A stretch of DNA of 46,599 nucleotides from Patescibacteria group bacterium. Lineage in GTDB: Bacteria > Patescibacteriota > Patescibacteriia > UBA9934. The position numbers and the translations under genes are program-made. Positions 14,857 to 15,836 of this stretch are shown piece by piece. The notes under the pieces were generated by a model that searched no databases, was not told where the DNA came from, and saw nothing but the letters and a program-made list of their open reading frames with translations. Numbering within the stretch: the stretch's first letter is position 1; each line of letters opens with the position of its first letter. The stretch lies in NCBI GenBank assembly GCA_018896835.1, contig JAHILS010000035.1, positions 1-46,599 of the forward strand, given 5' to 3'.

Positions 14857-14885
14857 CAAAAACCCCGCCGACCGGCGGGGTTTTT
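14857..14885 (+). terminator. hisS intrinsic terminator
   Basis: AAAAAA-CCCCGCC-gacc-GGCGGGG-TTTTT. Confidence 0.85.
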
Positions 14886-14886
14886 G

Positions 14887-14928
14887 AATTCACCCACTTT
14901 GGGCCGATCGGCCCAAAGTGGGTGAATT
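14887..14928. repeat. 42-bp perfect palindrome
   Basis: AATTCACCCACTTTGGGCCGAT|ATCGGCCCAAAGTGGGTGAATT; all 21 pairs were verified base by base. It lies directly between the hisS terminator and the promoter of the high-GC cassette. Confidence 0.9.
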
Positions 14929-14944
14929 TTGGGATGAGGCAGGC

Positions 14945-14973
14945 TTGACAGAATAAGCCAAAACACCTATAGT
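14945..14973 (+). promoter_or_regulatory. near-consensus sigma70 promoter of the high-GC Nudix cassette
   Basis: TTGACA (14945-14950), 17-nt spacer, TATAGT (14968-14973). It is followed by the small inverted repeat TTGTCA-cttt-TGACAA (14983-14998) and a GGGAGAGAG RBS before the ATG at 15030. Confidence 0.6.
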
Positions 14974-15029
14974 TTCAGGCTTTTGTCACTTTTGACAAGG
15001 CGTCACCACAAGAAAGAAGGGAGAGAGCG

Positions 15030-15783
15030 ATGTGCAAACCGCACCCCGAGATCAAGACTCTGCAGGACCTGGTCCTGCGCCCGAGCGTCATGCTCGCGGA
15101 CGTGCCTCCTGGCACGGACCATGAGTGGATGGTGTTCATCGACGGAAAGCGGGTTCGCTTCCCGTTCTCCCGGGTTGACCTCGTGCTCGTGAAGGGCGAG
15201 GGCGAGGGGGGGGATCTACCGCCATGTACAGCTCGGGTTGATGGGTAGCGAAGGCAACAAGTATGAAGCCATCGCCTACTACGAGGCCGGTGGCGGTGGC
15301 ACCGCGGTTCTGCCCTTCACCTTCATCTGCGGTCGACTCTACGTCGGTGTGGTGCTCCAGCACCGGCAGCTCATGGGCGAGGAGCCCGTGTATACCTCAG
15401 CCGGTGGCTACCAGGCGCTGACCGATAAAAGCGCCCAGCAAACCGGTGAGCGTGAATTGCGCGAGGAAGTGACCAACTGTGTTCGGGTCATCAAGCGTGC
15501 GTTCATGTTGCCGGGCGCGCCAGTGAATCCGAATCGCGCTGTGTTCATCACAGCTGGTGATGGGGAAGGCGTGAAGTACTTCGCTGTTGAGGTACTTTCG
15601 TCATACCTCGCGCCAGATAGCAACGGGTATTACCACTTCGTGCGCGGAGTGGAGAGGGTCAATCCAGGAGTCGAGAAGGCGCTCCGCACCGTGTTCATTC
15701 CGGTGCGCGAGGCAGCATTGTGCAAGTGCGGGCTCGTACGCGCTGGGCTCACGGCCCTGCTCGTGGAGCTCGATTTCATCTAG
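15030..15783 (+). pseudogene. high-GC Nudix-like hydrolase split by a frameshift at a G8 run
   Basis: ORF 15030-15248 and ORF 15238-15783 are in frames offset by one. Removing one G from the G8 run at 15206-15213 fuses them into one 250-aa ORF (..VLVKGEGEGG-IYRHVQLGLMGSEGNKY..). A Nudix-box-like AGGYQALTDKSAQQTGERELREEV lies at 15403-15477. Confidence 0.6.
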
Positions 15784-15794
15784 GCGGCCCTTGT

Positions 15795-15836
15795 CCCCAT
15801 CATGACCTGCGGGTTGTGGTGGGGATTCGCGTTTTT
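15795..15836 (+). terminator. terminator-like hairpin after the Nudix cassette
   Basis: CCCCATCA..ACC-tgcg-GGT..TGGTGGGG (with G-U pairs), followed by ATTCGCGTTTTT. Confidence 0.5.

What the first reader, a model, noticed from the sequence alone, without database searches (positions are those of the whole stretch)
14857..15836. Second high-GC cassette: Nudix-like gene inserted between hisS and rpsU
A second block of about 0.9 kb at roughly 65% GC sits in an otherwise AT-rich housekeeping intergenic region. It has the same architecture as the first cassette.

- A near-consensus promoter (TTGACA-17-TATAGT), a small inverted repeat, a GGGAGAGAG RBS, the coding region, then a terminator-like hairpin.
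- The product carries an imperfect Nudix box (GGYQALTDKSAQQTGERELREEV; the REL.EE core fits REUxEE, the upstream G/E positions fit poorly).
- There is an N-terminal extension with no recognisable family.
- The cassette is bracketed on the left by a 42-bp perfect palindrome and on the right by a dispersed hairpin repeat.
Basis: partly seen in the sequence, partly recalled or inferred. Interest (0 to 1): 0.65.

Follow-up and report, generated by a model that had tools for sequence, protein, structure and literature searches.

The report
Divergent, frameshifted Nudix gene, long resident
The GC-rich block between hisS and rpsU is one self-contained gene for a very divergent Nudix (ADP-ribose/NDP-sugar pyrophosphatase-type) enzyme; it has sat at this spot in every sampled relative rather than being a fresh insertion, it stays oddly GC-rich everywhere, and in this genome one extra G in a G-run breaks it.

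Summary
The composition anomaly is real. The CDS 15030-15783 has GC 0.61 and GC3 0.76, against 0.43 for the window and hisS GC3 0.40. It has its own promoter, RBS and terminator.

The product gives no direct Pfam, NCBIfam, PADLOC or PHROGs hit. It is still a Nudix protein:
- Its clade profile aligns with Pfam-positive NUDIX proteins (hhalign E 3e-51).
- An AlphaFold model of an intact ortholog (pLDDT 93.5) matches NUDT5, NudF and NudK over both domains.
- The "unrecognisable" N-terminus is therefore the ADPRase-type N-terminal domain.

"Recently inserted cassette" is not supported:
- Orthologs occupy hisS-[gene]-rpsU in every sampled relative, down to 31% protein identity.
- The gene is about 0.18 GC above its flanks in six of seven such genomes (+0.09 in the seventh), although synonymous sites are near saturation.
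- No donor, mobility gene or insertion scar was found.

The window copy is frameshifted at a G8 run. A 99.7%-identical assembly has G7 and an intact 250-aa ORF; another has G8. Fifteen of the 16 differences from the G7 genome lie inside this gene.

Verdict: a new, divergent member of a known family, with an unexplained persistent GC excess.

The parts
14855..14888 (+). hisS intrinsic terminator hairpin (16-bp arms, A-run before it and T-run after it). It belongs to hisS, not to the GC-rich gene.
14887..14928 (.). Perfect 42-bp palindrome (AATTCACCCACTTTGGGCCGA and its reverse complement) between the hisS terminator and the promoter. It is unique in the window, 100% conserved in same-species assemblies and degenerate in sister locus L008. 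Its role is unknown (second hairpin/insulator or operator).
14945..14973 (+). Sigma-70-type promoter TTGACA-17-TATAGT. A promoter-like site is kept at about the same distance (about 50-70 nt before the start codon) in orthologous loci L008, L009, L002 and L007.
15019..15027 (+). Shine-Dalgarno-like GGGAGAGAG; the GGAG core lies 6 nt before the ATG.
   Evidence: read directly
15030..15783 (+). Nudix gene, disrupted. ORF a is 15030-15248 (72 aa, N-terminal domain). ORF b is 15241-15783 (180 aa, Nudix domain). Removing one G gives a 250-aa protein that aligns end to end with intact orthologs. GC 0.61, GC3 0.76.
15206..15213 (+). G8 homopolymer, the longest G/C run in the window and the site of the +1 frameshift. 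It is G7 (intact ORF) in same-species assembly L024 and G8 in L023.
15255..15300 (+). 46-bp patch carrying 12 of the 16 differences from the 99.7%-identical genome L024 (GNKYEAIAYYEA versus GNSYPALGYYEA). It is a likely gene-conversion tract.
15403..15471 (+). Degenerate Nudix box GGYQALTDKSAQQTGERELREEV. The REUxEE core is intact. There is a one-residue insertion, no Glu at the canonical position 7, and the terminal Gly is replaced by Thr.
15793..15836 (+). Intrinsic terminator of the Nudix gene (15-pair stem plus T run). Each ortholog has its own terminator at this position.
15869..15896 (.). Copy of a dispersed intergenic hairpin repeat (CCCC..CCTCCTTTGAAAGGAGGGG). Other copies are at 39999-40026 and 40044-40070. 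It is not a cassette border.

Best explanation
The block is one autonomous transcription unit: promoter, RBS, 250-codon CDS and terminator.

**What it encodes (inferred from fold and residues).** The product is a highly divergent two-domain Nudix hydrolase of the ADP-ribose / NDP-sugar pyrophosphatase type. It has an N-terminal beta domain plus a Nudix domain. By analogy with NudF, NUDT5 and NudK it should act as a dimer that uses the Glu residues of its REUxEE helix to bind Mg2+. It should cleave the pyrophosphate of a nucleoside-diphosphate-X substrate into NMP and phospho-X. The substrate is not known.

**How long it has been there (shown).** It is not a recent foreign cassette. It has been at hisS-[gene]-rpsU since the common ancestor of a clade of small-genome uncultured bacteria. 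It has diverged with the host genomes, about 2-3 times faster than hisS.

**Its composition (shown and inferred).** In six of the seven genomes that carry it at this locus it is about 0.18 GC above its flanks, and +0.09 in the seventh. Because synonymous sites are near saturation, the GC excess must be actively maintained, by selection or biased gene conversion. It is not a fading relic of a donor. This last step is an inference.

**Its state in this window (shown and inferred).** The gene is off. An eighth G in a G7 tract shifts the frame after codon 60. A near-identical genome carries the intact G7 allele. The defect is therefore either a very young loss-of-function or on/off slippage allele, or a homopolymer miscall.
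For: **Nudix homology**
- The clade-only profile retrieves 335 representative proteins of similar length.
- 53 of the 76 sequences aligned (71 of these representatives plus the five clade sequences) hit PF00293, best E 1.7e-11.
- P0154 scores 41.1 bits and P0015 31 bits, against a gathering score of 21.1.
- hhalign of the clade against these members gives probability 100% and E 3.3e-51 over 218 columns.
- The family profile against PDB finds ADP-sugar pyrophosphatases at E 8e-7. The alignment includes the QxR...GG segment before the box.
- The clade profile against NUDT7 gives E 0.06, ungapped across the box.

**Fold**
- The AlphaFold model of ortholog P0004 has pLDDT 93.5 and pTM 0.89.
- Foldseek against PDB gives NUDT5 at 3.9e-8, then NudK (3o61) and NudF (1g0s, 9dre), with about 215 aligned columns.
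- The REUxEE glutamates are invariant in the clade.

**Residency**
- The same locus holds the gene in L001-L009, L013 and L015.
- Nudix identity against flank identity is 67.5% versus hisS 88% (L002), 52% versus yqeY 61% (L007), and 46% versus hisS 73% (L013).

**Composition**
- Gene GC minus flank GC is +0.17 to +0.19 in six of the seven locus genomes, with flank GC from 0.37 to 0.51. L009, with only 391 nt of flank, gives +0.09.
- GC3 of the gene versus hisS is 0.76/0.40, 0.57/0.29, 0.95/0.65 and 0.75/0.41.
- Identity at 4-fold sites is 0.27-0.49, against 0.27-0.36 expected from composition for the six pairs among window, L002, L013 and L015. hisS behaves the same way.

**Frameshift**
- L024 (99.7% identical) has G7 and an intact 250-aa ORF. 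L023 (99.96% identical) has G8 on a haplotype that differs at 15098 and 15101.

**Own promoter and terminator:**
Against: - There is no direct hit of the window protein or its close orthologs to PF00293, or to any NCBIfam, PADLOC or PHROGs model.
- The 23-residue Nudix signature is not met in full.
- The closest relatives (P0007, P0010, P0016) have substitutions even in the core. Parts of the family may therefore be non-catalytic.
- Foldseek TM-scores are modest (0.43-0.49 normalised to the query length, 0.50-0.65 to the target length). Domain-swapped crystal structures could explain this, but it was not shown.
- No biochemical or genomic-context clue fixes the substrate.
- The GC-maintenance argument rests on 7 locus genomes and on 4-fold sites that are not completely saturated.
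- G8 could be a recurrent assembly error, since no reads are available.
- No relative with an empty hisS-rpsU junction was found or could be searched for, so the time of acquisition is only bounded.
Confidence: 0.7

Rival explanations
1. Recent horizontal acquisition: a foreign high-GC gene cassette from a GC-rich donor was inserted between hisS and rpsU and has not yet ameliorated.
For: - GC3 is 0.76 against about 0.35 for neighbouring genes, with sharp boundaries at the CDS ends.
- The broader family includes members in GC-rich genomes, for example L010 at 68% GC.
- A second GC-rich gene (cassette 1) is window-specific relative to L002.
- An ancient acquisition from a GC-rich donor at the base of the clade is not excluded.
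Against: - The gene sits at the same locus in every sampled relative, down to 31% protein identity and 72-77% HisS identity.
- Gene divergence follows flank divergence.
- Synonymous sites are near saturation, yet GC3 remains high.
- Gene GC3 differs more between genomes than host GC3 does. This does not fit simple amelioration from one ancestral value.
- No donor, integrase or flanking direct repeats were found.
Confidence: 0.1
2. Assembly chimera or contamination: a fragment of a GC-rich organism was mis-joined into a low-GC contig.
For: There is an abrupt composition change, and this is a metagenome-type sequence.
Against: - The same gene lies between the same neighbours in more than 10 independent assemblies from ENA, JGI, Logan and NCBI. 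These include 350-kb, 653-kb and 710-kb contigs.
- The low-GC promoter and terminator are conserved with the gene.
Confidence: 0.01
3. The gene is a contingency (phase-variable) locus. Slippage in the G7/G8 tract switches the enzyme on and off within populations. The gene is a fast-evolving conflict or host-interaction factor, for example one that degrades an ADP-ribose-derived or other nucleotide signal. It would not be a housekeeping sanitiser.
For: - G7 (intact) and G8 (frameshifted) alleles occur in genomes that are 99.7-99.96% identical. G8 is found on two haplotypes.
- 15 of 16 differences from L024 over 5.2 kb lie in this gene, including a 12-substitution patch.
- The gene evolves faster than its flanks.
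- It has its own strong promoter.
Against: - The tract is absent from orthologs in other species. L008 has none and L009 has G6.
- A G7 run in a 750-nt, 61% GC gene is not very improbable by chance.
- There is no PADLOC or PHROGs hit and no defence-type neighbours.
- Only three genomes sample the tract.
- Homopolymer miscalls cannot be excluded.
Confidence: 0.2
4. The gene is a decaying pseudogene, or its product is a non-catalytic Nudix-fold protein (a binding protein or pseudoenzyme) in this clade.
For: - The window and L023 copies are frameshifted.
- The Nudix box is degenerate, and the nearest relatives have lost the Arg or a Glu of the core: EELHDE in P0007, IEMGDE in P0010 and EELHAE in P0016.
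- There is no Pfam hit.
Against: - Apart from one extra G the ORF is intact, and all invariant residues are kept.
- Every sampled ortholog in another species and one same-species genome (L024) have intact ORFs.
- R-E-x-x-E-E is invariant in the window's own clade.
- The confident fold model argues for a constrained protein.
Confidence: 0.15

Closest known systems
ADP-ribose / ADP-sugar pyrophosphatases: human NUDT5 and E. coli NudF (ADPRase)
   Same: - They share the two-domain architecture of an N-terminal beta domain plus a Nudix domain, matched over about 215 columns.
- The Q-x-R...GG segment before the box and the REUxEE helix align.
- The L-P-G motif after the box aligns with D-P-G of NUDT5.
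   Different: - Sequence identity is only 12-16%.
- The box has one extra residue, no Glu at position 7 and Thr in place of the last Gly.
- An invariant E-x-GGGG-T motif and an N-P-N-R-A motif have no counterpart that I could identify.
- The substrate is untested.
E. coli NudK (YffH) GDP-mannose hydrolase
   Same: It has the same two-domain fold and is among the best structural matches (3o61 and 3o52; TM normalised to the target up to 0.65).
   Different: There is no detectable sequence similarity beyond the Nudix core, and nothing points to GDP-sugar specificity.
NUDT7-type CoA diphosphatases
   Same: This is the only solved structure that the clade-only profile touches (E 0.06). The alignment is ungapped across GG-x5-D-x8-RE-x-x-EE, so this box spacing has a precedent in a real Nudix enzyme.
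   Different: The match is weak and covers only 59 residues. The fold search prefers the ADPRase/NDP-sugar group. The upstream CoA-ase motif was not examined.
Unannotated Nudix family of about 220-250 aa proteins in uncultured bacteria (335 representatives; e.g. P0154, P0015)
   Same: The homology is full-length (hhalign E 3.3e-51). The N-terminal W-x-V-x-(V/I)-DG, E-x-GGGG, NPN and C-terminal ARLL-type helix motifs are shared.
   Different: - Those members have a canonical box (RGF-x2-PGE-x7-RE-x2-EE-xG) and pass Pfam's threshold.
- Members at other loci show little or no GC excess: +0.03 to +0.08 for L010, L014, L017 and L019, with L020 higher at +0.15.

Membership tests
Nudix hydrolase superfamily (Pfam PF00293) | Direct match to the PF00293 profile above the gathering score | tested here: not met
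   There is no hit even at E<=10 for the corrected window protein. There is also none for orthologs P0004, P0006-P0011, P0014 and P0016.
Nudix hydrolase superfamily (Pfam PF00293) | Homology to proteins that do pass PF00293 (transitive, profile-profile) | tested here: met
   hhalign of the clade against 20 family members gives probability 100% and E 3.3e-51. P0154 scores 41.1 bits and P0015 31 bits, against a gathering score of 21.1. 53 of 76 aligned sequences hit NUDIX.
Nudix hydrolase superfamily (Pfam PF00293) | Nudix fold (alpha/beta/alpha sandwich with the loop-helix-loop box) | tested here: met
   The AlphaFold model has pLDDT 93.5. Foldseek gives 105 PDB matches at E<=0.001, and the top 50 listed are all Nudix enzymes. 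The viral library also returns mostly Nudix proteins.
Nudix hydrolase superfamily (Pfam PF00293) | Metal-binding core R-E-U-x-E-E of the Nudix box | tested here: met
   RELREE is present in the window protein and is invariant as R-E-(L/M)-R-E-E in its clade.
Nudix hydrolase superfamily (Pfam PF00293) | Full 23-residue signature G-x5-E-x7-REUxEE-x-G-U with canonical spacing | tested here: not met
   The box reads G-x5-D-x8-RELREE-V-T. It has a one-residue insertion, the canonical Glu is aligned to Ala/Lys, and the final Gly is replaced by Thr. Comparable spacing is seen in NUDT7.
Nudix hydrolase superfamily (Pfam PF00293) | Mg2+/Mn2+-dependent hydrolysis of a nucleoside diphosphate linked to X | not testable with these tools
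   This needs an enzyme assay of the G7 allele.
ADPRase / NDP-sugar pyrophosphatase subgroup (NudF, NUDT5, NudK) | Extra N-terminal beta domain preceding the Nudix domain | tested here: met
   The model has strands at 45-51, 58-69 and 72-81 before the Nudix domain. Alignments to NUDT5, NudF and NudK span about 215 columns of targets that are 175-209 residues long.
ADPRase / NDP-sugar pyrophosphatase subgroup (NudF, NUDT5, NudK) | Conserved Arg in the strand before the box (QFR of NUDT5) and the P-G motif after the box (the subgroup 'downstream proline', recalled from Dunn et al. 1999) | tested here: inconclusive
   Q106-x-R108 and L-P-G are conserved and align to QFR and DPG of NUDT5 in the family-profile alignment. 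The proline is at +12, not +15/16, from the box end. Its role is recalled from memory, not tested.
ADPRase / NDP-sugar pyrophosphatase subgroup (NudF, NUDT5, NudK) | Domain-swapped homodimer; ADP-ribose or NDP-sugar substrate | not testable with these tools
   No multimer prediction or assay was available.
Recently acquired genomic island / gene cassette | Atypical base composition relative to the host genome | tested here: met
   GC is 0.61 and GC3 0.76, against 0.43 and about 0.35.
Recently acquired genomic island / gene cassette | Patchy presence: absent from the same site in close relatives | tested here: not met
   The gene is present between hisS and rpsU in all sampled relatives (L001-L009, L013, L015, L023, L024). 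No empty site was seen, but a targeted search for one could not be run.
Recently acquired genomic island / gene cassette | Mobility signatures: integrase or transposase, flanking direct repeats, or an identifiable donor | tested here: not met
   - There are no such genes or repeats. The left palindrome is unique and has a degenerate ortholog in L008. The right hairpin is a dispersed intergenic repeat.
- There is no relative in viral contigs.
- Relatives found in representative genomes are only syntenic or more distant homologs.
- The Nudix gene was not searched against plasmid or phage records.
Phase-variable contingency gene | Homopolymer in the CDS whose length differs between near-identical genomes and toggles the reading frame | tested here: met
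   G8 is found in the window and L023, and G7 with an intact ORF in L024, at 99.7-99.96% nucleotide identity.
Phase-variable contingency gene | Tract-length heterogeneity within one population (reads); tract conserved among related species | tested here: inconclusive
   Reads are not available. The tract is absent in L008, L002 and L007 and is G6 in L009.

The most novel reading that the evidence does not exclude
A gene-specific force keeps this one Nudix gene about 18 GC points (about 30 GC3 points) above its genome. The force could be selection on synonymous or mRNA composition, or GC-biased gene conversion at a recombination hotspot. The offset holds across a deep clade whose genomes range from 37 to 51% GC, long after synonymous sites have turned over. 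The same gene is a within-species hotspot of conversion tracts and G-tract on/off switching. If so, it is a fast-evolving contingency-type Nudix enzyme in small-genome (probably episymbiotic) bacteria. Its 'foreign' look would be an equilibrium state and not a mark of transfer.
Probability: 0.35. Interest if true: 0.6.

Novelty: new member of a known kind. Interest (0 to 1): 0.38.

Why it matters
1. **Annotation.** About 335 representative clusters of a Nudix family exist, and a subclade of them is invisible to Pfam and NCBIfam. That subclade can now be named by fold and profile-profile homology.

2. **Method.** This is a clean counter-example to the rule that atypical GC means recent horizontal transfer. 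The gene looks foreign in six of the seven genomes that carry it at this locus, with a nearly constant offset. Yet it is syntenic and co-diverging. Composition-based island callers would flag it wrongly in every one of these genomes.

3. **Evolution.** If the GC excess is maintained by selection or biased conversion, this is a compact natural test case. It consists of one 750-bp gene with many orthologs and population-level variants. It could be used to measure such forces in reduced genomes.

4. **Biology.** The G7/G8 polymorphism and the conversion patch suggest a gene under conflict-type dynamics. This is worth testing, given the role of ADP-ribose-derived nucleotides in bacterial immunity. 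No link to immunity is shown here.

Tried and rejected
- **Direct family scans.** The corrected protein and the cassette-1 protein were scanned against Pfam, PADLOC, PHROGs and NCBIfam. Nothing useful came back.
- **AlphaFold with the 5-sequence alignment.** This failed with pLDDT 36.5 and was discarded. A 76-sequence alignment was needed.
- **Word-indexed search with the 76-sequence profile.** It returned only 8 proteins because of the candidate cap.
- **Scans of representative genomes.** The clade alignment found nothing. A 6-sequence alignment found 2 loci.
- **Viral contigs.** No relative was found, so there is no phage link.
- **JGI metagenome scan.** It added only 3 loci, one already known.
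- **5' UTR inverted repeat as RNA structure.** Rejected, z +0.85.
- **Downstream repeat as a stable structure.** Not significant, z +1.35.
- **Rfam.** Over the window only tRNA-Asp reaches threshold. At a permissive threshold the flanks give only sub-threshold hairpin look-alikes (Phe leader, miRNA precursors), all on the two tandem hairpins. These were rejected as chance.
- **Conserved antisense ORF as the cause of high GC.** Rejected. Antisense ORFs in the window gene are only 71-75 aa, and long ones elsewhere are the usual by-product of high GC3.
- **Source of the L024 conversion patch.** No sampled ortholog matches it better than the window version does.
- **Cassette-1 homologs.** None were found in the protein database apart from the protein itself (two earlier time-outs). 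None were found in plasmids, phages or JGI metagenomes.
- **Exact look-ups.** Look-ups of the 180-aa fragment and of DprA found nothing on record.
- **Literature.** Searches for the assemblies and for GC-rich genes or Nudix in Patescibacteria gave nothing relevant.
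Full report
**1. What is in the sequence**

The window averages 0.434 GC (750-nt windows, sd 0.047). Two blocks stand out:
- 7487-8377 ('cassette 1', GC 0.67)
- 15030-15783 (GC 0.61)

The second block coincides with a coding region. The promoter region 14950-14999 is 0.36 GC and the DNA after 15950 is 0.30 GC. GC3 is 0.76, against 0.40 for hisS and 0.26-0.50 for every other long ORF except cassette 1.

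From left to right the region reads as follows.

| Feature | Coordinates | Evidence |
|---|---|---|
| hisS stop | 14817 | |
| hisS terminator hairpin | 14855-14888 | |
| Perfect 42-bp palindrome, abutting the terminator | 14887-14928 | |
| Promoter TTGACA-17-TATAGT | 14945-14973 | |
| GGGAGAGAG (RBS) | 15019-15027 | |
| Start codon ATG | 15030 | |
| Stop codon | 15781-15783 | |
| Terminator hairpin plus T run | 15793-15836 | |
| Copy of a dispersed hairpin repeat | 15869-15896 | |
| rpsU promoter | 15951-15979 | |
| rpsU | 16022-16267 | |

- The two tandem hairpins together fold at -61 kcal/mol, z = -10.
- The palindrome is unique in the window.
- The terminator of the gene has z = -5.3.
- The dispersed repeat has further copies at 40008 and 40044.
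- The 'small inverted repeat' after the promoter is not more stable than shuffled sequence.
- The ORF is split at a G8 run (15206-15213), the longest G/C homopolymer in the window.
- Deleting one G gives a 250-aa protein.

**2. The protein is a Nudix enzyme, but the direct test fails**

The corrected protein has no Pfam, NCBIfam, PADLOC or PHROGs hit even at E<=10.

It has only four close homologs (51-70% identity, 235-251 aa, all intact) among 5.8 billion proteins. The corrected window protein aligns with them straight across the frameshift site.

A profile of this clade alone, searched against 1.84 billion representatives, finds 335 proteins of similar length. The evidence from these is:
- 76 sequences were aligned, namely 71 of these representatives plus the five clade sequences. 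Of them, 53 match PF00293, best E 1.7e-11.
- P0154 (41 bits) and P0015 (31 bits) exceed the gathering score of 21.1.
- hhalign of the clade against 20 such members gives probability 100% and E 3.3e-51 over 218 columns.
- The family profile hits ADP-sugar/ADP-ribose pyrophosphatases in the PDB at E about 8e-7.
- The clade-only profile touches NUDT7 at E 0.06, ungapped through the box.

Structure prediction with five sequences failed (pLDDT 36.5). With 76 sequences the ortholog P0004 (67.5% identical to the window protein) models at pLDDT 93.5 and pTM 0.89. Foldseek against the PDB returns NUDT5 (3.9e-8), E. coli NudK and E. coli/Klebsiella ADPRase NudF, with about 215 aligned columns. That is both domains. 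The viral library returns only generic Nudix proteins.

The 'unrecognisable N-terminal extension' is therefore the N-terminal beta domain typical of this Nudix subgroup.

The box in the window's clade is GG-Y-x-A-x-T-D-x-S-x4-G-E-R-E-L-R-E-E-V-T:
- The REUxEE core is intact.
- There is a one-residue insertion.
- The canonical Glu-7 is lost.
- The last Gly is Thr.

This is why Pfam misses it.

**3. It is not a recent cassette**

Every close homolog lies at the same place:
- P0004 lies between hisS and rpsU-yqeY on six contigs from ENA, JGI and Logan, including 350-kb and 653-kb contigs.
- P0005 lies upstream of rpsU-yqeY.
- P0002 lies between a hisS 3' end and rpsU.
- P0003's contig is too short to show the neighbours, but its upstream promoter region aligns with that of the window and L008.

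More distant relatives show the same locus:
- P0006 (46% identical) has the synteny lytR-lepB-hisS-[gene]-(one extra gene)-rpsU-yqeY. It is on a 95-kb MAG contig labelled 'uncultured Gammaproteobacteria'.
- P0016 (about 31% identical) has hisS-[232-aa ORF]-[gene]-rpsU...yqeY on a 710-kb contig.

Divergence of the gene follows that of its neighbours but runs faster:

| Comparison with window | Nudix identity | Flank identity |
|---|---|---|
| L002 | 67.5% | HisS 88%, YqeY 89% |
| L007 | 52% | YqeY 61% |
| L013 | 46% | HisS 73% |

The promoter is conserved in place. It is identical in L008, and promoter-like sites lie at the same distance in L009, L002 and L007. Each ortholog has its own terminator.

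The palindrome has a degenerate counterpart in L008. The right-hand hairpin belongs to a dispersed intergenic repeat family. There are no direct repeats, mobility genes or donor. An assembly chimera is excluded by the many independent assemblies.

**4. The composition anomaly is persistent, which is the unexplained part**

Gene GC minus flank GC is as follows:

| Genome (hisS-rpsU locus) | Gene GC minus flank GC |
|---|---|
| window | +0.18 |
| L002 | +0.19 |
| L007 | +0.18 |
| L008 | +0.17 |
| L013 | +0.18 |
| L015 | +0.18 |
| L009 (only 391 nt of flank) | +0.09 |

Flank GC in these genomes ranges from 0.37 to 0.51.

GC3 of the gene against hisS is as follows:

| Genome | Gene GC3 | hisS GC3 |
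|---|---|---|
| window | 0.76 | 0.40 |
| L002 | 0.57 | 0.29 |
| L013 | 0.95 | 0.65 |
| L015 | 0.75 | 0.41 |

Third positions avoid A (1-17% at 4-fold sites) and favour C.

Identity at conserved 4-fold sites between orthologs is 0.27-0.49. For the six pairs among window, L002, L013 and L015, 0.27-0.36 is expected from composition alone. hisS behaves the same way (0.31-0.46 observed, 0.23-0.35 expected). Synonymous sites have therefore largely turned over.

A fading donor signature cannot explain a nearly constant offset. A single-ancestor amelioration model even gives a negative decay factor from the three hisS/gene pairs (my arithmetic). I infer that the bias is maintained by synonymous or mRNA-level selection, or by biased gene conversion. 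I could not discriminate between these.

Family members at other loci mostly show little or no excess: L017 +0.07, L014 +0.06, L010 +0.03 and L019 +0.08. L020, whose neighbours do not fix its locus, shows +0.15.

**5. The frameshift and within-species variation**

An exact-HisS look-up found same-species assemblies:
- L023 (GCA_022012805.1) is 99.96% identical and also has G8.
- L024 (GCA_018895575.1) is 99.7% identical and has G7 with an intact 250-aa ORF.

The window differs from both at 15098 and 15101, so G8 occurs on two haplotypes.

Of the 16 differences between the window and L024 over 5.2 kb, 15 lie in this gene. Twelve of them lie in a 46-bp patch (15255-15300) that changes GNKYEAIAYYEA to GNSYPALGYYEA. 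No sampled ortholog is the source of this patch.

This looks like a conversion tract and marks the gene as a local hotspot of variation. G7/G8 may be real slippage (an on/off or young null allele) or a recurrent homopolymer miscall. Reads are needed to decide.

In the G8 state an ATG at 15241 overlaps the stop of the upstream ORF. A 180-aa Nudix-domain fragment could therefore be re-initiated. That is speculation.

**6. Mechanism proposed**

- **Shown:** homology and fold of a two-domain Nudix protein, an intact REUxEE core, an autonomous promoter and terminator, long residency at the locus, and the G7/G8 alleles.
- **Inferred:** it is a Mg2+-dependent NDP-X pyrophosphatase acting as an ADPRase-like dimer. 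The substrate is of the ADP-ribose/NDP-sugar class. The conserved Q-x-R before the box and L-P-G after it align with NUDT5.
- **Not known:** the actual substrate and physiological role. In a small-genome organism the role could equally be nucleotide or cofactor salvage, or removal of ADP-ribose. No defence-system signature or linked gene was found.

That the organism belongs to the candidate phyla radiation is my inference. It rests on gene content and on 0.35-0.71-Mb contigs of relatives, and was not tested. The 'Gammaproteobacteria' label on one syntenic MAG is doubtful.

**7. Verdict**

- The 'Nudix-like' reading is right, although it needed fold and profile-profile evidence.
- The 'inserted high-GC cassette' reading is not supported as a recent event.
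- The gene is a new, very divergent member of a known enzyme superfamily.
- Two things lift it above routine. One is the maintained GC excess across a deep clade. The other is the concentration of within-species change in this one gene, namely the G-tract indel and the conversion patch.

Noticed in passing
window 7430-8467 (CDS 7487-8377, minus strand): 'Cassette 1' is a 293/296-aa ORF with GC 0.67 and GC3 0.90. It has its own promoter (TTGACA-17-TATTTT, 8467-8439) and terminator (7457-7430). It has no homolog other than itself among 5.8 billion proteins, and none in plasmids, phages or JGI metagenomes. The only family hint is a weak Pfam HI1480 match (E 0.03). In relative L002, DprA and Pth are adjacent, so cassette 1 and the neighbouring TSP3-repeat ORF (8528-9196) are specific to this lineage. 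Unlike cassette 2, this one could be a true recent acquisition.
   Followed up: partly
window 42577-46442: tRNA-Asp (42577-42653) has its last 25 nt repeated exactly at 46418-46442. The 3.8 kb between the two copies holds an 822-aa ORF with no family and a Fic/DOC-domain protein with a C-terminal winged-helix domain (45244-46296). The layout is that of a small tRNA-targeted integrated islet, but no integrase is present.
   Followed up: partly
window 15878-15894, 40008-40024, 40044-40060: A dispersed intergenic hairpin repeat has the core CCTCCTTTGAAAGGAGG (5 matches on both strands, 0.01 expected). The arms contain CCTCC/GGAGG, which is an anti-SD/SD-like sequence. Its function is unknown.
   Followed up: partly
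window 7307-7371; also 9253-9284 / 42094-42125; L009 about 960-1070: A second small repeat family, (T)CCATCCCGACG...GGATCTTCTT, occurs in tandem next to cassette 1 and as inverted copies elsewhere. A related copy lies downstream of the Nudix gene in relative L009. It is probably a lineage-specific REP/MITE-like element.
   Followed up: no
window 14887-14928: The 42-bp perfect palindrome sits directly against the hisS terminator. It is perfectly conserved in same-species assemblies and degenerate in sister locus L008. It may be an operator or insulator for the Nudix promoter 17 bp downstream.
   Followed up: partly
L013 (CAYFME010000002.1): This MAG contig is titled 'uncultured Gammaproteobacteria bacterium'. 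It shares the full lytR-lepB-hisS-Nudix-rpsU-yqeY synteny and 62-73% protein identity with the window. The taxonomic label is therefore probably wrong or generic. Its Nudix ortholog reaches GC3 0.95.
   Followed up: partly
window 16890-22445 and 24379-33828: Two giant ORFs (1851 aa and 3150 aa) are rich in Gly, Ser and Thr, with internal repeats (for example the Cys-containing repeats at 28257-28967). They are presumably surface proteins. The C-terminal 127 aa of the first has a 46%-identical match in L013.
   Followed up: no
L019 1053-1739: In a more distant family member's locus, the gene next to the Nudix homolog (228 aa, no Pfam hit) is also GC3-rich: 0.60, against 0.37-0.45 for the following genes. 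The GC excess may therefore extend to a partner gene in some lineages.
   Followed up: no
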